From an uncultured Hormoscilla sp. (GTDB lineage: Bacteria; Cyanobacteriota; Cyanobacteriia; Cyanobacteriales; Desertifilaceae), in the NCBI GenBank assembly GCA_963921275.4, contig OZ001293.3, positions 4,256,001-4,320,000 of the forward strand: 64,000 bases of DNA. Direction: 5' to 3'. This document shows positions 55,558-60,384 of this stretch, one piece after another. The notes beneath the pieces were generated by a model. It was not told the DNA's origin, did not search any database, and worked only from the letters and a program-made list of their open reading frames with translations. Position 1 is the stretch's first letter; each line of letters opens with the position of its first letter. The translations under genes and the position numbers were made by a program.

Positions 55558-55565
55558 GTTGGCAC

Positions 55566-55634
55566 GCGATCGCACCCTGACCCGATATACTTTCCCATAG
55601 GGGCGATCGCCTAAACCACTTCCGCCATCAACAA
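55566..55634. repeat. Cassette-boundary repeat CGATCGCACCCAACCCGATATACTTTCCCATAGGGGCGATC...CACTTCCGCCAT
   Basis: Copies at ~55566, 57447 and 59336, partial at 59172. Confidence 0.85.
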
Positions 55635-55859
55635 CCTTCCTTCAACTCTTTCATATTCATCTTCTAGCAACCACATTTTAGCCTCTTGATAGCTAGAACT
55701 TGCGAAGACAATCTTATAGCCTTCAGTCGGGTCAAAAATGCAAAAATTACTCTCATCATCTCCCAATAACATTAACACATAGGGAGGAACAGAAGTTGGA
55801 TCTACCCAGAGCTCCGTAAAGTTCCAGTTATTCGCTAGGTCTGGTGCGGGGGATAACAT
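55611..55859 (-). CDS. Small acidic protein, putative immunity protein
   Basis: YQEAKMWLLEDEYERVEGR; overlaps the upstream toxin-like gene. Confidence 0.6.
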   Translation of the reverse strand: MLSPAPDLANNWNFTELWVDPTSVPPYVLMLLGDDESNFCIFDPTEGYKIVFASSSYQEAKMWLLEDEYERVEGRLLMAEVV

Positions 55860-56163
55860 GATATTTGTCTCCATTTATTTTTATTTCACCATAATGTAGA
55901 GGAATTCGACTGCCATCATCACCACTAATTCTGTAACCAATTGGTTTGGCAAAGTAAAGTCCATAGCGTTCATGATTCCGGACAACCCCTGTAAACTTTC
56001 CTTGTTCGATGATAGCTTGAGCGACTCTCATCATTGTATCTCGATCGTTGAAAACATGAGCTGCTTCTTTTCGTCGCAACAACTTTTGCATCTGTGGAGT
56101 ATCTGGAAGATGCTTGGCGACATGCTTGGTGTCTAGAGTCAGTTCCTGGTCAATTCCACTCAT
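55828..56163 (-). CDS. Toxin-tip-like protein (DUF6972-like, putative nuclease)
   Basis: KH...AHVFN...IGYRI...YHVIPR layout typical of small His-based toxin RNases. Confidence 0.6.
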   Translation of the reverse strand: MSGIDQELTLDTKHVAKHLPDTPQMQKLLRRKEAAHVFNDRDTMMRVAQAIIEQGKFTGVVRNHERYGLYFAKPIGYRISGDDGSRIPLHYGEIKINGDKYHVIPRTRPSE

Positions 56164-56527
56164 TCAAGGTTACAGTTCTCCATAGCCTGCCTGCGCAGGC
56201 TTTGTTTGTGTAGCGGCTTCATTAATGAAGCCGCTATGCCCACTTGATGCTATTAAACTCCACTGGTGCCGATCGCCCGCCTCCCCATTTGGGGCGGATT
56301 AATGCCGACTATACCTTTATCCTATATGACTTTACCCTCCCCGTCAAGAAAAATTTTTGACTCTCTCATTCCCCCTCTTGTCGGAGGTGATGATGGCGGT
56401 TACCGGCGGGGTTTGCATCTGGGTGCGATCGGGTGTACTTACAGCTTCGTTTCTGGTGCCGATCGCCCTTGGGGCCAGTTGCTGTACTGTAACCAGCTAT
56501 CTGGGCGATCGCTCCGACAATATCGCC

Positions 56528-57415
56528 CTACTTTCCTGAATAAGTTATGTATCCCCAGAGCAGACAAGCATATTGTAACCTTGCCAAGGTCTGATTTAAT
56601 AAATTATTTTTCTTGGCGCTAAACATTTTCGGCATTAAATCAATAGCATAAAGATTGCTAATCATTTTATTACCATGGCCATAGCGGATAAATCTTTTGA
56701 AAAATTCCAGTATATCGTCTTCAAAGTTATGATAAATTACCGAATTTAATGCATAAGACAAATTGCCGATTTCTAACAATCTCCAACCTAAATCTATATC
56801 TTCTCCGGCGGCAATCTTAATTCTCTCGTTGAAGCATCCTATTTTTGACAGGGCTTTTTTCCAAACCAAGGCATTGGCAGTAATTAAATATTCAGGTCTG
56901 ATTATTCCCTCCTCGGCAATTACTGTAAAGGGCATAAGAATTTCTTGACTTTCATAATATCTTGACAAAATATCTTCCCCCCAGGCTTTAACATTGCCTG
57001 CATAGCCGATCGAGCCATTCATAGCCTGAAGATAGCCTTGAATAAATGACTGAGAAGGAATGCAGTCGCTATCTGTAAATAAAATCCAATCACCTTTAGC
57101 ATGTTTAATTCCTACATTCCTGGCAGCAGCGGGACCAGTTTTTGAGCATTTCAGCAGGCGGATAGGAAATGGTTTTACTTGGTATTGCTGAGGGATGGTA
57201 ATCTCTGGCTGGGAATTATTGTCAACGATGATAATCTCTTGAGGATAGAGGTGGGAATTGTGTGTCTGAAAAAACTCCGCCAAGAATAAATCTATTCCTT
57301 TCTGATTATTTCTGACTGGGATAACTATCGAAATATCAGATGCTTGGATTTGCACCAGTGCTATTAAATTGGCCTTCTTTTGGGGCTTAAAGCCTAACTT
57401 GGTGATTAAAGTCAT
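56528..57415 (-). CDS. GT2 glycosyltransferase
   Basis: SIVIPVRN, IIIVDNNS, AARNVG, FTDSDC, GEDIDL; RBS GGAGG; AT-rich. Confidence 0.9.
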   Translation of the reverse strand: MTLITKLGFKPQKKANLIALVQIQASDISIVIPVRNNQKGIDLFLAEFFQTHNSHLYPQEIIIVDNNSQPEITIPQQYQVKPFPIRLLKCSKTGPAAARNVGIKHAKGDWILFTDSDCIPSQSFIQGYLQAMNGSIGYAGNVKAWGEDILSRYYESQEILMPFTVIAEEGIIRPEYLITANALVWKKALSKIGCFNERIKIAAGEDIDLGWRLLEIGNLSYALNSVIYHNFEDDILEFFKRFIRYGHGNKMISNLYAIDLMPKMFSAKKNNLLNQTLARLQYACLLWGYITYSGK

Positions 57416-57740: not shown

Positions 57741-58124
57741 TTAACCGCTTTCGAGGGCATAAGAAATCAGAACAAAATCATAGCGATCGGGCGGAAAGTC
57801 ACGAAAATTGCGAGTAACAAGGCTGAGTTGATAAATCTGGCAAAAGGCGGCTTGAATAGCATCGGGGAGCCTCCACCCCTCTTGACGACGCAATAATGCG
57901 GCTAAGTCCGCTACTGCCACCATCATTTCCAGGGTTGTAAACTGGTCTAGAAATTGGGCTGCAATCTCAGCATCAGGTGGTTCAAACCCTACTAGAACTT
58001 CTGCTCTAGTAATTATGGAAATAGCACTTTCCCCTTGGGACTGGAGCAGATACTCTGTAGCCGCAGGAATATTGTTAAAGTGGTCAATTAGGATAACCGA
58101 ATCCAGCAATAATCTCACGCCCAC
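57741..58124 (-). CDS. VapC/PIN toxin
   Basis: LLDSVILID...E...LPDAIQAA...LVTRNFRDF. Confidence 0.88.
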   Translation of the reverse strand: MGVRLLLDSVILIDHFNNIPAATEYLLQSQGESAISIITRAEVLVGFEPPDAEIAAQFLDQFTTLEMMVAVADLAALLRRQEGWRLPDAIQAAFCQIYQLSLVTRNFRDFPPDRYDFVLISYALESG

Positions 58125-58351
58125 TCCCCTCGAATTATTTGCTGGTATTCCAACCCATCGGACCCCTTCTAGATGCCCCTGGTTTGCTCTAAGAGAACCT
58201 CAAAAGAGGGATATTCTGCTTTGTCTTCTTCTTAGCGCATTCGCTTAACGCCTTGACCGATTAAGGCGGAGATCGTCGTTTTATTTTCTTTGGCTTTCAT
58301 TTCTAGCCAGCGCAGATCTGCGGGCTCTAGGATAATCTCGTTAGGGCTCAT
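58115..58351 (-). pseudogene. Frameshifted antitoxin
   Basis: Ends DGLEYQQIIRGEWA*, overlapping the PIN start; 5' part MSPNEIILEPADLRWL lies in another frame. Confidence 0.55.
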
Positions 58352-58675
58352 CTGCTTGCACTAATGTTAGTATAGTTCAATGATATAGCAATCTCTCAGA
58401 AAAAGCCAATCGCCAACTGGCTAGCTGTACCATATGCTCAAACATCAAGTCTCTTTTTCTATTTTTCCATTTTCTCTCTTGACCTCCAGACCAGTATCAG
58501 CCTCGCGATCGCGAACTAGCATTTCGTAATTTGCAACGTAACGAGCGGAAAATAGGTGCTATACTGGTGATTTATATTTAGAATAATGACAGCGATCCCT
58601 AAACCCCCTCTTGTTTCTGAGGAGGCGGCGAGGGGACTGAAACACACCTGATCACAGCAAAAGGAATTCCTCCAA

Positions 58676-58840
58676 ATGAAGACTGTCATAAAACGTCGAA
58701 CGGCGATGGTCATACTCGCGATCGTGCTCGCGCTGTTCACAACCTTTACCCTTGTTTTGGCTCAAGGCCTGCCCGGCGTCCAGGTTCTCTATGCCCTCTG
58801 GAACATCTACCAGAATATCTTCGGTGGGTGGTCTCTATAA
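58676..58840 (+). CDS. 54-aa secreted peptide precursor (not in ORF track)
   Basis: MKTVIKRRTAMVILAIVLALFTTFTLVLAQGLPGVQVLYALWNIYQNIFGGWSL; AAAGGA upstream. Confidence 0.55.
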   Translation: MKTVIKRRTAMVILAIVLALFTTFTLVLAQGLPGVQVLYALWNIYQNIFGGWSL

Positions 58841-59444
58841 GCGCTACTTCCGGAGTTGTAGGTTGGGTTGAGGCCAGCAAACCCCAACCTGTGAGATTTA
58901 GCAGTATATCTCATTATAGCGGATTTCCCCCACTCGCTTGTAGGGTACATCTCATTTTTGCGGCGGGGCTATTCACCGGTAACCCATAAACCCGGACTGG
59001 TAGCCCTCTAACCCGGTATGGTATTAGCCATTGAGTCCCCAGAAACCCGGTTTCTTATACCATTTTTTTAACTACAAAAGTCGTAGGGTGGGCACTGTCA
59101 AGGACGATCTTGTCAGTTATCTGCTAATTATACCTTGCGGCGATCGCCTGTCCAGTCTCAAGTTTGCACCCGATCGCACCCAACCCGATAATACCAAATG
59201 TCAAAAAGGTTGCTACACTGGCGAAAGTTCTTTCACGCAAGCACTTCATCCCCAGGGGGTTTTAACCGACTAATAATTCCTTTGGTGGGCGGTGCCCACC
59301 AAAGGGCAAACTGGCGTACATTTTCCTCTCTGGTGCCGATCGCACCCAACCCGATATACTTTACCATAGGGGCGATCAGGCACAGCACTTTCGCCATAAC
59401 AACCGTACTTCAACTCCATTCATACTCTTTATTACTATAAAAAT

Positions 59445-60384
59445 TAGTTACGATGTTTCACAGTACGAAGATGCGTACCAATATACCCGATAATCATCCT
59501 TCCTGGTCCTACATCTGGGAAAAAATGAATCCGCCAAGCTAAAGGCGTCAGTCGGACGTGCCAACTAAAAACCCTATACTCACCATCAGGACATAGAAAA
59601 GTTCTCTCCTCTCCAAACTGCTGAATAGTTGCTTGACTCTCGGGGATGCCTTGCTAGGGAGACTGTCTGGATCGAATGGTCCACTTTCCCAAGTCTGGCA
59701 ATAATCGGAAAGCTCGAATAATCGCTTTTCAACAGGGCGCAGCATCACATTTCCAGTACGGAGGTTTTGTAATTGTTCTCCCACATCTTGGCAAAATTCT
59801 AGGTTAGGGAATAACTCCGCTCTACGATGCCAAAGTTCCGCACCGTCGCCCAGGACAGTGCGGATACGTTTCTGAATCCAATCAGCGTGCTGCTGCACGT
59901 GGTCGCGGCAACTGGCGTGGATTATAGACTCTTTCAGCTCCTCATCATCGTCAACTTGTATTACTGTTATCTCTAGGCGGCTCACATCCCATCGGCGATC
60001 CGACTTCAAGCTCACCGCCAGTGCATTATTGATAACAGCATAAGCGAGTCCAATCGATGGCTCTGTTTCTCCTTGCTCTCCTCGATCCCTCACTTGAATA
60101 TTTAGCTCTGTAATCTGGTCCAAATTCCAGCCTTTTCTGATATAGCTTTTGAGTAGTCGAGCTTCCAGGTCTTTATCTCGCTCCTTAAACCACTTAGATA
60201 CAGTATAGTTACGTGCCAGTTCTGAGGAGTAAAAATTACTCTTCGTGCGCAGCATCCCTGGGACGCCTTTCGCAGTTGCTGCACGTACAGTTTCGATCAA
60301 TTCTGACATCCATTGTCTTGCTGTTTCAATGTCAGCAGCAGGAGTCTGCAAAGACAGTTCATTAAATACCATCTCCAAATCCAT
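59445..60384 (-). pseudogene. Defence effector (Menshen NsnC-like), frameshift near 59640
   Basis: MVFNELSL N-terminus; after the shift reads ESQAT...FSWHVRLTPLAWRIHF...IIGYIGTHL (RelE-like tail). Confidence 0.6.

What the first reader, a model, noticed from the sequence alone, without database searches (positions are those of the whole stretch)
55560..59445. Integron-like cassette array without an integrase, joined at HIP1-type sites
Seen: a ~70-bp unit (CGATCGCACCCAACCCGATATACTTTCCCATAGGGGCGATC...CACTTCCGCCATAACAA) recurs at ~55566, 57447 and 59336, partial at 59172. TGGTGCCGATCGC junctions occur at 56264, 56454 and 59331. Between them lie unrelated, mostly minus-strand modules: toxin/immunity-like pair, GT2, antitoxin/PIN, a small peptide, then the defence operon. 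Similarity among copies stops within a few nt of the CGATCGC site; the other side is the decayed tail of the immunity gene. At 57447 a TAAAAT, GGAGG and ATG follow on the minus strand. Known: HIP1 is hyper-abundant in cyanobacteria and has been linked to recombination, function unresolved. Inference: a HIP1-anchored gene-cassette capture/shuffling system for TA, defence and surface genes.
Basis: partly seen in the sequence, partly recalled or inferred. Interest (0 to 1): 0.72.

Follow-up and report, generated by a model that had tools for sequence, protein, structure and literature searches.

The report
Decayed toxin-immunity array with HIP1 joints
The repeated unit is the tail end and hairpin of a small immunity gene, left behind several times in one variable stretch of a cyanobacterial chromosome that has since filled with other toxin-antitoxin and defence genes; a few of its joints sit on the HIP1 palindrome, but it does not look like an active gene-capture system.

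Summary
The ~70-bp unit is at 55567, 57447 and 59336, with a partial copy at 59172 and a fifth copy about 1 kb past the window end. All 4 genome copies of CTGGTGCCGATCGC lie in this locus, and nothing like the unit occurs elsewhere in the 7.03-Mb genome.

The unit is the last codons of an 87-aa immunity gene plus its 3' hairpin, whose arms are HIP1-type sites. Its partner, DUF6972, models as an RNase A-like toxin domain, and the pair is predicted to bind. I read the locus as a decayed array of these toxin-immunity modules, later colonised by GT2, a PIN toxin-antitoxin pair, NsnABC, an IS, a group II intron and a MITE.

Some joints are truly HIP1-type. The GT2 segment is flanked by CCGATCGC, the promoter module by the 14-mer, and one 622-bp deletion in a relative ends beside HIP1 on both sides.

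The capture-system reading fails its tests:
- No integrase and no attC-like site were found.
- The copy order is the same in the two congeners that keep all four copies.
- Only 1 of 8 large strain differences ends at HIP1.
- Genome-wide, duplication ends are barely enriched at CGATCG.

Duplicated orphan-immunity modules around TA or R-M cargo recur in other genera, which keeps a weaker landing-pad idea open.

The parts
55261..55557 (+). p98: small conserved cyanobacterial protein of unknown function. Its last ~69 nt (from 55489) form the left arm of unit copy A.
   Evidence: ORF. 46 homologues at 54-81% identity. No Pfam or NCBIfam hit. Model pLDDT 80.7 with no PDB match at E<=0.001.
55567..55612 (.). 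Unit core, copy A: a hairpin whose two arms are HIP1 sites (GCGATCGCaCCC ... GGGGCGATCGC) with a 20-nt loop. It lies directly 3' of the immunity stop codon.
   Evidence: Fold -12.2 kcal/mol on the + strand (z -2.67) and -14.2 on the - strand (z -2.90).
55611..55874 (-). imm87: immunity or antitoxin partner of DUF6972. Its last ~50-80 nt are the right arm of the unit.
   Evidence: The family is present in 122 of 301 genomes of the order. It is adjacent to or overlapping DUF6972 in 14 of 20 loci outside the genus. Alignment A2. Predicted complex score 0.85 against a best control of 0.38.
55828..56163 (-). DUF6972 protein (111 aa): predicted stand-alone RNase A-like/BECR-type toxin.
   Evidence: Pfam PF22319, E 1.8e-50. 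Model pLDDT 91.6. Foldseek top hits are 9v8i_B, 5e3e_B/D and 8hhj_B. 5e3e chains B and D are the CdiA-CT toxin according to PMC5435912.
56164..56262 (-). Leader with hairpins, shared with the stretch upstream of NsnA (window-equivalent 64579-64651) and partly with 66163-66222.
   Evidence: blastn; alignment A5; + strand terminator-like AGCCTGC..GCAGGCT-TTGTTTGTGT.
56263..56466 (-). Promoter module (~190 nt) bounded on both sides by CTGGTGCCGATCGC. It carries a minus-strand TTGACG-17-TAGGAT. Two tandem copies lie at window-equivalent 64640-65010.
   Evidence: Promoter-like hexamers are kept in all 3 copies (consensus matches only).
56467..57446 (-). GT2 segment (ORF 56528-57415) flanked by the 8-bp direct repeat CCGATCGC (56459-56466 and 57447-57454). 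I read it as an insertion into a promoter-module|core joint.
   Evidence: Sequence; alignment; Pfam PF00535. The gene is broken in G003 (TGA) and G004 (split) and partly deleted in G002.
57447..57528 (.). Unit copy B: core, a 15-nt small dispersed repeat splitting the second HIP1 arm (GCG^ATCG), and about 5 codons of immunity tail.
   Evidence: The 15-mer has 29 genome copies.
57529..57637 (.). MITE-like element with ends GGGGTGTGGTC...GACCACATCC and an internal G/C hairpin, abutting copy B.
   Evidence: A related 193-nt element with a 9-bp target duplication is inserted at 58645 in G004. End motifs recur genome-wide.
57741..58351 (-). PIN (VapC-like) toxin 57741-58124 and a short upstream ORF 58232-58351 (putative antitoxin).
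   Evidence: Pfam PF01850; NCBIfam VapC below its cut-off. The antitoxin role is inferred from position only.
58676..58840 (+). 54-aa hydrophobic peptide ORF. It is longer in G003 and G004 through in-frame repeat insertions at 58797.
59093..59191 (.). Unit copy C1: remnant of the p98 tail (22 codons, 68% identical) plus the first 21 nt of the core.
59192..59335 (-). Segment X. Its right end resembles the end of the promoter module, and it holds a 12-bp terminator-like hairpin at 59279-59305. It lies between 21-nt direct repeats CCGATCGCACCCAACCCGATA.
59336..59427 (.). Unit copy C2: full core plus a decayed immunity tail (ERVEVRLLMAEVV is still readable in G002-G004).
59548..63296 (-). NsnC (59548-60384), NsnB (60388-61539, split by a stop at 60943), an IS5-type IS (61529-62422) at the nsnA/nsnB junction, and NsnA exon 2 (62427-63296, with an internal stop). 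The operon appears degraded in this genome.
   Evidence: PADLOC NsnA/B/C; Pfam. The IS is absent in G004, and 20 other IS copies of >=800 nt exist in the genome.
63318..64000 (-). ORF-less group II intron (runs to 64179, beyond the window) interrupting NsnA. NsnA exon 1 lies at window-equivalent 64159-64431.
   Evidence: Rfam RF00029, 46.4 bits. Absent in G004 and in metagenome contig X5. At least 144 near-full copies in the genome.

Best explanation
The locus is a decayed array of paralogous DUF6972 toxin / 87-aa immunity modules in a strain-variable TA and defence islet.

Each module once read, on the minus strand: promoter module, leader, toxin, immunity gene, then a 3' hairpin with HIP1-type arms. 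The 'unit' is what survives of a module's 3' end, namely the last immunity codons plus the hairpin.

- Copy A is an intact module.
- Copy D, just past the window, is an orphan immunity gene.
- Copy C2 is the tail left when NsnABC replaced the toxin and most of the immunity gene behind the old promoter and leader.
- Copy B is a tail stump next to a MITE and a PIN TA pair.

The joints on CCGATCGC (promoter module|core, the tandem promoter modules, both ends of the GT2 segment) come from short-homology or illegitimate recombination at HIP1-type sites. This property of HIP1 has been reported before. I do not think a dedicated cassette recombinase made them.

Shown: the repeat anatomy, the locus restriction, the toxin-like fold, the predicted binding, the conserved gene pairing, the stability of the array in congeners, and the mixed nature of the breakpoints. 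Inferred: the ancestral tandem array, the direction of each event (insertion or deletion), and the promoter and terminator roles.
For: Repeats are locus-private:
- The unit, the promoter module and the leader occur only here in 7.03 Mb.
- A 38-nt core pattern is found only in this locus in G000, G002, G003 and G004, with 0 matches in G001.

The unit is the immunity gene's 3' end:
- The stop codon lies inside the second HIP1 arm in A and D.
- Tail remnants are readable at C2 in 3 of 3 congeners that carry it, and DUF6972 C-terminal remnants lie upstream of the D-locus immunity gene in G001, G003 and G004.

The pair looks like toxin and immunity:
- The DUF6972 model has pLDDT 91.6.
- The three best Foldseek hits are chains of polymorphic-toxin/immunity complexes: 9v8i_B (E 3.6e-4, TM 0.61), 5e3e_B/D and 8hhj_B. 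5e3e B and D are the RNase A-like CdiA-CT toxin (PMC5435912 passages).
- The complex score is 0.85 against a best control of 0.38. That mark was reached by 116 of 157 solved complexes and 2 of 215 mismatched pairs. Runs agree on at least 97% of contacts and partner pLDDT is at least 82.
- The interface pairs invariant toxin residues (H14, K17, H36, R62, R78, H102) with the acidic LEDEYE stretch of the immunity protein.
- Of 20 loci outside the genus, 14 have the intact pair, 3 a truncated toxin and 3 no toxin.

NsnABC sits in an old module. Upstream similarity to module A covers the leader and promoter module (64579-64846 against 56189-56467). Downstream it ends in the immunity tail and core C2.

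The array is static and decaying:
- G003 and G004 have the same copy order, and G002 keeps two of four copies.
- GT2 is broken in 3 of 3 congeners.
- NsnA and NsnB are broken here.

No integrase was found. HIP1-linked recombination is already in print: passages of PMC4390886 and PMC13756078.
Against: - Three or four independent joints fall within 3 nt of a CGATCG, although only 3.4% of positions in this 20-kb stretch do. That is more than chance and more orderly than generic illegitimate recombination.
- The GT2 segment with its exact 8-bp direct repeat is what site-specific or Campbell-type insertion at that site would leave.
- Copies B and C2 keep only about 5-13 immunity codons, so they could have been copied as small units rather than being relics of whole modules.
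- A second genus (G113) has its own locus-private unit carrying a pair of HIP1 sites. It occurs in 3 copies at the borders of duplicated orphan-immunity modules, with a HepT/MNT TA pair between, and its flanks switch about 5 nt from HIP1.
- The three informative congeners are 96-97% identical to G000 here, so the stability of the array covers little evolutionary time.
- No genome with an empty GT2 site was found, so the direction of that event is inferred.
Confidence: 0.62

Rival explanations
1. The extended HIP1-type site (CTGGTG-CCGATCGC-ACCC) is a recombination site at which a host activity inserts, excises and shuffles gene segments, so the locus is an integrase-less, integron-like cassette platform for TA, defence and surface genes.
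For: - GT2 (a promoterless ORF with 31 nt of 5' and 61 nt of 3' flank) lies between exact CCGATCGC repeats inside a joint that is contiguous at C2 and D.
- The promoter module lies between 14-mer repeats and is doubled at D.
- Segment X lies between 21-nt repeats that start with the same site.
- The G002 622-nt deletion ends beside HIP1 on both sides.
- There is a parallel HIP1-pair unit in G113.
- Literature links HIP1 to site-specific recombination in PCC 7002 and to insertion of a small repeat inside HIP1 (PMC4390886 passages).
Against: - No tyrosine recombinase was found in the genome, and none of any kind among the 60 window ORFs scanned.
- The sites occur nowhere else in the genome.
- The copy order is the same in G003 and G004.
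- 7 of 8 large strain differences and 26 of 29 small indels are not at CGATCG.
- The Nsn and PIN/peptide blocks are not bounded by HIP1.
- Genome-wide duplication ends lie near CGATCG in 164 of 4647 cases (3.5%) against a 2.7% background.
- The cargo is decaying rather than turning over.
Confidence: 0.08
2. A landing-pad model. The conserved DUF6972/immunity module itself provides the homology, over tens to hundreds of nt. Incoming or excised DNA that carries a module copy plus cargo integrates by ordinary homologous (Campbell-type) recombination. This leaves module-cargo-module direct repeats that then decay. HIP1 is incidental.
For: Direct repeats of the module or its tail flank TA or defence cargo in three other genera:
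- G171: a 107-nt repeat (immunity tail plus 3' flank) around a 99-aa ORF.
- G113: a 1.4-kb repeat around HepT/MNT.
- G231: a 437-nt repeat around ParDE and a Bpu10I-like R-M pair. The joints examined there show no HIP1.

The immunity C-terminus is the most conserved part of the protein.
Against: - In G000 the homology left at B and C2 is only 40-90 nt and 72-95% identical, and no transfer intermediate is seen.
- Tandem duplication followed by unrelated insertions gives the same picture.
- Only about 5 lineages among the matches listed show nearby same-strand duplicates.
- Nearby duplication of TA modules may simply reflect islet dynamics.
Confidence: 0.15
3. The unit is kept because it functions as RNA or DNA in its own right, for example as a 3' stabiliser or terminator hairpin, or a regulatory site, that each downstream or upstream gene has co-opted.
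For: - The hairpin folds better than shuffles in 3 of 4 copies (z -2.7 to -4.6).
- At B it sits 31 nt upstream of the GT2 start, beside a TAAAAT.
- The p98-tail arm carries a minus-strand TGGACA-16-TATAAT (11 of 12) in C1 and TCGATA-16-TATAAT in A.
Against: - There is no U-tract after the hairpin.
- No Rfam family matches.
- The core is not conserved beyond the genus downstream of homologous immunity genes.
- Copy B's second arm is split by a 15-nt repeat, and G002 lost the first arm of C2.
- Within the genus everything is 96-97% identical, so conservation carries no information.
Confidence: 0.1
4. The unit is an ordinary MITE that inserted independently at each place.
For: It is short and has a hairpin. 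Real MITE-like elements are present next to it (57529-57637) and at 58645 in G004.
Against: There are no copies outside this locus, no terminal inverted repeats beyond the HIP1 arms and no target duplications. One side is always immunity-gene sequence.
Confidence: 0.01

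Closest known systems
Orphan toxin/immunity arrays of polymorphic toxin loci (CDI cdiA-CT/cdiI orphans, Rhs orphans, maf islands)
   Same: An RNase-type toxin domain with a small acidic immunity protein encoded just downstream. Relics of toxins and immunity genes lie in a row, with repeated sequence between them. 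The structural hits are to CdiA-CT(Ykris), MafB2-CT and a YxiD complex chain (papers read as passages). That such loci contain orphan arrays is recalled, not taken from a call.
   Different: DUF6972 is a 111-aa stand-alone protein with no delivery domain (longer fused forms were not searched for), so it may act as an intracellular TA-like module. The relics all belong to one family. Unrelated TA and defence genes fill the gaps.
rAID-1 recombinase-associated immunity-gene clusters of Bacteroidales (bioRxiv 10.1101/471110, passages read)
   Same: [quoted passage not shown]
   Different: rAID-1 has a conserved XerD-family recombinase and up to 31 diverse immunity genes. Here no recombinase was found, there are only two intact immunity genes of one family, and the array is the same in close relatives.
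Integrons (IntI, attI, attC cassettes)
   Same: One promoterless ORF (GT2) is bounded by the same short site on both sides. A repeated hairpin-forming unit lies between gene blocks that mostly share one orientation. An upstream promoter-bearing module is present.
   Different: There is no IntI. The hairpin is a perfect 12-bp stem with a 20-nt loop and no extrahelical bases. ACCCAAC/GTTGGGT heptamers exist at the D joint but in the order opposite to attC R''/R' (sequence; the attC consensus is recalled). Cassette boundaries are mostly not at the site. There is no strain-to-strain cassette turnover.
HIP1-associated illegitimate or site-specific recombination (smtB excision in Synechococcus PCC 6301; plasmid recombination in PCC 7002; excision between cloned HIP1 sites)
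   Same: Rearrangement end points lie in or next to GCGATCGC/CGATCG: the GT2 segment, the promoter-module tandem, and the G002 622-nt deletion with GCGA microhomology. The cases are described in passages of PMC4390886 and PMC13756078. The primary papers were not read.
   Different: Here several such joints are concentrated in one locus and share a longer context (CTGGTG-CCGATCGC-ACCC). No experiment supports it.
Small dispersed repeats inserted inside HIP1 (SDR5, cited in PMC4390886)
   Same: Copy B's second HIP1 arm is split GCG^ATCG by a 15-nt sequence that has 29 genome copies, 12 of them between GCG and ATCG.
   Different: The sequence relationship to SDR5 itself was not tested. This concerns one arm of one copy, not the unit.

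Membership tests
Integron | IntI-type tyrosine recombinase next to the array | tested here: not met
   PF00589 gave 0 matches in G000 (96.7% complete), while all 14 control genomes gave a match. No recombinase domain in 16 + 44 window ORFs. p98 is labelled 'DNA invertase' by one source for one homologue, but it has no family or fold match.
Integron | attC-type sites: imperfect palindromes with R''/L''-L'/R' boxes and extrahelical bases | tested here: not met
   Folds show a plain 12-bp stem with HIP1 arms and a 20-nt loop, or a 20-bp stem at the D joint. No attC covariance model or IntegronFinder was available, so this rests on the fold and on reading the sequence.
Integron | Cassette content differs between strains, with boundaries at the recombination site | tested here: not met
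   G003 and G004 have the same copy order, and G002 keeps two of four copies. Only 1 of 8 large differences not due to mobile elements has both ends within 3 nt of HIP1.
MITE | Dispersed copies with terminal inverted repeats and target-site duplications | tested here: not met
   All copies lie in one 10-kb locus. No target duplications. One flank is always immunity-gene sequence.
Toxin-immunity pair with a BECR/RNase A-like toxin | Toxin domain with the RNase A-like/BECR fold | tested here: met
   AlphaFold model with pLDDT 91.6. Foldseek hits 9v8i_B (E 3.6e-4, TMq 0.61), 5e3e_B (8.9e-3, 0.50), 5e3e_D (0.57) and 8hhj_B (0.50). No sequence-level PDB hit. TM values of 0.5-0.6 are moderate.
Toxin-immunity pair with a BECR/RNase A-like toxin | Cognate small immunity gene immediately downstream, with conserved synteny and binding | tested here: met
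   Overlapping genes in 14 of 20 loci outside the genus. Complex score 0.85 against a best control of 0.38. This is a prediction only.
Toxin-immunity pair with a BECR/RNase A-like toxin | Toxicity of the toxin, neutralisation by the immunity protein, RNase activity | not testable with these tools
   Needs expression and an RNase assay.
Polymorphic toxin system (CDI/Rhs/LXG/Maf) | Toxin domain fused to an N-terminal delivery or secretion region | not tested
   All 15 aligned DUF6972 proteins are about 110 aa. Longer fused forms were not searched for.
rAID-1-like immunity island | XerD-family recombinase plus many diverse orphan immunity genes | tested here: not met
   No recombinase. Only one immunity family: two intact genes and two stumps.
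HIP1-associated recombination | Rearrangement end points within or beside GCGATCGC/CGATCG | tested here: met
   Both ends of the GT2 segment, the ends of the promoter module and its tandem joint, the C2/D joint, and the G002 deletion 58515-59136. This does not hold for most other breakpoints.
NsnABC defence system (PADLOC naming) | Three genes matching NsnA, NsnB and NsnC in a row | tested here: met
   E-values from 1.1e-18 to 4.7e-71. In this genome nsnA is split by an intron and a stop, and nsnB by a stop, with an IS between them.

The most novel reading that the evidence does not exclude
DUF6972/immunity modules act as recombinase-independent landing pads in cyanobacterial chromosomes. Locus-private hairpin units with HIP1-type arms at the module borders are the places where a HIP1-directed host activity (methylation-linked nicking or a CGATCG endonuclease) or short-homology recombination inserts and duplicates promoter modules, promoterless genes and TA or defence cargo. 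That would be a primitive, integrase-less analogue of an integron, arising independently in several genera.
Probability: 0.1. Interest if true: 0.75.

Novelty: new member of a known kind. Interest (0 to 1): 0.4.

Why it matters
The function of HIP1 has been open for some thirty years. A locus where three segments each lie between direct repeats of one HIP1-type site, plus a HIP1-bounded deletion in a relative, offers natural substrates for testing whether HIP1 promotes insertion, duplication and excision in vivo.

Separately, the work gives a first functional reading of DUF6972. No paper in the searched library holds that name. I read it as a stand-alone RNase A-like toxin with a dedicated immunity protein. 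The immunity family was found in 122 of 301 genomes of the order, and it is often orphaned or duplicated around TA and defence genes.

If the capture idea were right, it would be a new route of gene acquisition. On present evidence the locus is an ordinary decaying islet.

Tried and rejected
- **Rfam.** A scan of 50000-64000 at E<=1 found no family on the unit or the promoter module, only the group II intron.
- **MITE reading.** Rejected because no dispersed copies exist.
- **Integrase search.** PF00589 gave none in the genome. A Pfam scan of 44 further window ORFs found only DDE transposases and XisI.
- **p98 as a recombinase.** One homologue carries a source label 'DNA invertase'. There are no Pfam or NCBIfam hits even at E<=10 and E<=0.1, the ESM Atlas gave nothing usable, and the model (pLDDT 80.7) has no PDB match at E<=0.001. 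The label is unsupported.
- **Donor of GT2.** The best homologues outside the genus are 71-72% identical in one genus. DNA similarity stops at the start codon and 34 nt before the stop, so the flanks tell nothing.
- **Conservation of the core hairpin.** It is not present 3' of immunity homologues in 20 loci outside the genus, although some carry their own HIP1 pairs.
- **Public runs.** Four runs were laid. All are contigs. The listed 'joints' have 19-36-nt sides and fall at short repeats, IS and intron edges, so they give no evidence for or against circles or excision. Contig X5 shows the same A-to-peptide order and lacks the IS and the intron.
- **PDB by sequence.** The DUF6972 profile gave 0 hits at E<=1.
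- **Earlier findings of this scan.** None exist for this genome.
- **Expression.** Not tested, because only one RNA run held a small share of the words.

Full report
**Observation**

The region was read directly and repeats were computed. The unit exists at the stated places.
- Copy A: core 55567-55612.
- Copy B: 57447-57528.
- Copy C2: 59336-59427.
- Partial copy C1: the first 21 nt of the core start at 59172.

Copy A is in fact about 170 nt long (55489-55658). It has three parts: the last 69 nt of a + strand gene (p98, 55261-55557); a hairpin core whose arms are HIP1-type sites; and the last ~50-80 nt of a minus-strand 87-aa ORF (55611-55874), whose stop codon lies in the second arm. C1 plus C2 together are a second copy of this 170-nt stretch, split by 144 nt and a 21-nt duplication.

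A genome-wide blastn against the laid genome (7.03 Mb) found the unit only in this locus. It also revealed a fifth copy, D, about 1 kb beyond the window end.

All 4 of 4 genome copies of CTGGTGCCGATCGC are here, at 56263, 56453, 59330 and 64832. HIP1 itself is abundant: 4754 copies (0.68 per kb), and CGATCG at 1.95 per kb.

In the alignment of the five copies the block GATCGCACCC-AAC..GATA is invariant.

**The other repeat**

Between the 14-mers at 56263 and 56453 lies a ~190-nt module. It recurs twice in tandem at window-equivalent 64640-65010, together with about 70 nt of leader.

Each of the three copies keeps a minus-strand TTGACG-17/18-TA(G/T/A)GAT promoter-like pair. These are consensus matches, not proof of function.

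In the window the module stands upstream of the DUF6972 gene. Beyond the window it stands upstream of exon 1 of the defence gene nsnA.

**Genes**

Pfam and PADLOC give the following.
- DUF6972 (55828-56163), overlapping the 87-aa ORF.
- A GT2 glycosyltransferase (56528-57415).
- A PIN toxin (57741-58124) with a short upstream ORF.
- A 54-aa peptide on the + strand.
- NsnC, NsnB and NsnA.

NsnB is cut by a stop codon. An IS5-type element sits at the nsnA/nsnB junction. NsnA has an internal stop and is interrupted by an ORF-less group II intron. Beyond copy D lie a PIN/UPF0175-like pair and then chlN/chlL-like genes; those family names are my reading of the translations and were not scanned.

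**What the DUF6972 pair is**

The 87-aa family occurs in 122 of 301 sampled genomes of the order, in 63 of 119 genera. In 20 loci outside the genus, DUF6972 is intact and overlapping upstream in 14, truncated in 3 and absent in 3. Both families are highly conserved.

A DUF6972 model (pLDDT 91.6) has as its three best PDB matches chains from toxin-immunity complexes:
- YxiD-YxxD (9v8i_B, E 3.6e-4, TM 0.61).
- CdiA-CT/CdiI of Yersinia kristensenii (5e3e_B/D).
- MafB2-CT/MafI2 (8hhj_B).

Passages of PMC5435912 state that 5e3e chains B and D are the RNase A-like toxin. PMC9970974 states that MafB2-CT is most similar to that toxin.

A complex prediction of DUF6972 with the 87-aa protein scored 0.85, against a best control of 0.38. 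That mark was reached by 116 of 157 solved complexes and 2 of 215 mismatched pairs. Runs agree on at least 97% of contacts, and partner pLDDT is at least 82. This supports binding but does not show it. Invariant basic and histidine residues of DUF6972 face the acidic LEDEYE stretch of the partner.

I therefore read the pair as an RNase-type toxin and its immunity protein or antitoxin. No paper in the searched library holds 'DUF6972'.

**What the unit is**

The right arm of every copy is immunity-gene sequence.
- It is intact in A and D (imm87 and an 82-aa paralogue, 87-90% identical).
- At C2 a 13-residue remnant, ERVEVRLLMAEVV, is readable in G002, G003 and G004. G000's own copy is more decayed.
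- At B about five codons remain.

Upstream of the D immunity gene, relatives keep a C-terminal stump of DUF6972. The match has E 4e-5 in G001 and is weaker in G003 and G004.

The Nsn operon lies between a promoter module plus leader on one side and the immunity tail plus core C2 on the other. It occupies the place of a toxin and most of an immunity gene.

The simplest history is a row of at least four toxin-immunity modules, each ending in the hairpin with HIP1-type arms. One is intact (A), one is an orphan immunity gene (D) and two are stumps (B and C2). This history is inferred. The stumps are short enough that copying of small pieces cannot be excluded.

**Tests of the cassette-capture idea**

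1. *Recombinase.* PF00589 gave no match in the genome, while all 14 control genomes matched. None of the 60 window ORFs scanned has a recombinase domain. p98, for which one source labels one homologue 'DNA invertase', has no family or fold support.

2. *Site structure.* The core folds as a 12-bp stem with a 20-nt loop, and the D joint as a 20-bp stem. Neither resembles an attC bulged hairpin. I had no attC model to run.

3. *Strain comparison.* Four congeners were found and their loci fetched. G003 and G004 carry all four copies in the same order. G002 carries C2 and D. G001 is rearranged and split over several contigs.

   Eleven large differences were listed. Three are mobile elements: the IS and the intron, present only in G000, and a MITE with a 9-bp target duplication in G004.

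   Of the other eight, one has both ends 2-3 nt from HIP1, with GCGA microhomology (G002 deletion 58515-59136). One has its right end 8 nt from HIP1, inside core A (the G003 replacement of 55110-55581 by 419 nt including a MITE end).

   The remaining six have no HIP1 at either end:
   - G002 deletion 55136-56978.
   - G002 deletion 57320-58078.
   - Loss of the PIN gene at 65316-65859 in G002 and G003.
   - G003 deletion 59607-64301, which removes the Nsn operon.
   - The 457-nt insertion at 54222 in G004.
   - The in-frame repeat insertions at 58797.

   Of 29 small indels (>=4 nt), with events shared between genomes counted separately, 3 lie within 3 nt of CGATCG. The figure expected by position is 3.4%.

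4. *Genome scale.* Of 4647 ends of low-copy paralogous matches outside this locus, 164 (3.5%) lie within 4 nt of CGATCG. The background is 2.7%, and shifted controls give 2.3-3.1%. The excess is small. BLAST ends are fuzzy, so this is a rough test.

5. *Cargo state.* GT2 is intact only in G000. It has a TGA in G003, is split in G004 and is partly deleted in G002. The Nsn genes are broken in G000.

This is the picture of a decaying islet, not of a system in use.

**What remains in favour of HIP1 joints**

- The GT2 segment (56467-57446) lies between exact CCGATCGC repeats. Its removal would recreate the joint seen at C2 and D.
- The promoter module lies between 14-mer repeats and is doubled at D.
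- Segment X lies between 21-nt repeats that begin with the same site.

With 3.4% of positions near a CGATCG, three or four independent joints on the site are not chance.

The literature already ties HIP1 to such events. Passages of PMC4390886 cite site-specific plasmid recombination in PCC 7002, illegitimate recombination between cloned HIP1 sites, and insertion of the SDR5 repeat between the third and fourth nucleotide of HIP1. Passages of PMC13756078 recount the 352-bp smtB excision flanked by HIP1. I read only these passages, not the primary papers.

Copy B itself shows the last kind of event. A 15-nt sequence with 29 genome copies splits its second arm as GCG^ATCG.

**Parallels elsewhere**

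Because the immunity family often has nearby duplicates, I fetched four other loci.
- G113: a 1.4-kb orphan-immunity module is duplicated at 95% identity, with a HepT/MNT TA pair between the copies. A unit carrying a pair of HIP1 sites, private to that locus (3 copies in the genome), stands at the module borders. Its flanks switch about 5 nt from HIP1.
- G231: a 437-nt module repeat brackets ParDE and a Bpu10I-like R-M pair. The joints are not at HIP1.
- G171: a 107-nt repeat of the immunity tail brackets a 99-aa ORF, with no HIP1.

Module repeats around TA and defence cargo therefore recur, with HIP1 in some cases only. This keeps alive a weaker model in which the module supplies homology for integration. 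It is equally what tandem duplication plus later insertions would give.

**Verdict**

The repeats and the HIP1-type joints are real. The unit is the 3' end of a toxin-immunity module, not an attC-like site or a MITE.

The integron-like capture system is not supported. It is also not fully excluded: the congeners are very close, and no culture-level data exist. The public runs are contigs and gave nothing usable on excision.

The new content is modest. It consists of a functional reading of DUF6972 and a compact natural example of HIP1-associated rearrangement.

Noticed in passing
window 63318-64000 (runs to 64179 in L001/L020): The ORF-less ~860-nt group II intron that interrupts nsnA has at least 144 near-full-length copies (>=700 nt; the best twelve are ~98% identical) in this genome, which is a very large proliferation. 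It is absent from this site in G004 and in metagenome contig X5.
   Followed up: partly
window 57487-57501: A 15-nt sequence (29 copies genome-wide, 12 of them between GCG and ATCG) splits the second HIP1 arm of unit copy B between the third and fourth nucleotide. This matches the kind of small dispersed repeat insertion cited in PMC4390886.
   Followed up: partly
window 61529-62422: An IS5-type IS with a CTA target duplication is inserted exactly at the nsnA stop / nsnB start overlap. Its end supplies a new ATG for nsnB. 20 other copies of >=800 nt exist in the genome.
   Followed up: partly
window 58797 (G003 L015 8963-9210; G004 L014 9376-9473): The 54-aa peptide ORF is longer in G003 and G004 through in-frame insertions of 246 nt and 96 nt that encode repeats (KPSGQLSYYSYSGLPNPSNFRN...). 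The gene looks like a repeat-number-variable small secreted or membrane protein.
   Followed up: no
L017/L018 (G001) against window 55109 and 65038: In G001 the two ends of this locus are joined to DNA that lies about 130-140 kb away in G000. An inversion or translocation breakpoint therefore falls inside the locus. G001 also has a different loop between the same HIP1-type arms 3' of its immunity gene.
   Followed up: partly
window 11713-12609 and 13874-15229: A hetR-like gene (Peptidase_S48 plus HetR_C) shows that the organism belongs to a hetR-bearing, probably filamentous, cyanobacterial group. A sigma-70 gene appears split into two ORFs (regions 1.2-2 and regions 3-4).
   Followed up: no
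window 54186-54278 and G004 L014 4196-4652: Two 44-nt tandem repeats end in TTGTAGGTTGGG. G004 has a 457-nt insertion at this point, apparently another small mobile or repeat element.
   Followed up: no
window 59127-59154 and 55523-55550, minus strand: The p98-tail arm of the unit carries a strong promoter-like site antisense to p98: TGGACA-16-TATAAT (11 of 12) in C1 and TCGATA-16-TATAAT in A. An antisense or read-out transcript is possible.
   Followed up: no
G000 C1:672361-672928: A second, intact DUF6972/immunity pair (about 50% identical to the window pair) lies elsewhere in the same genome. Its flanks were not examined.
   Followed up: no
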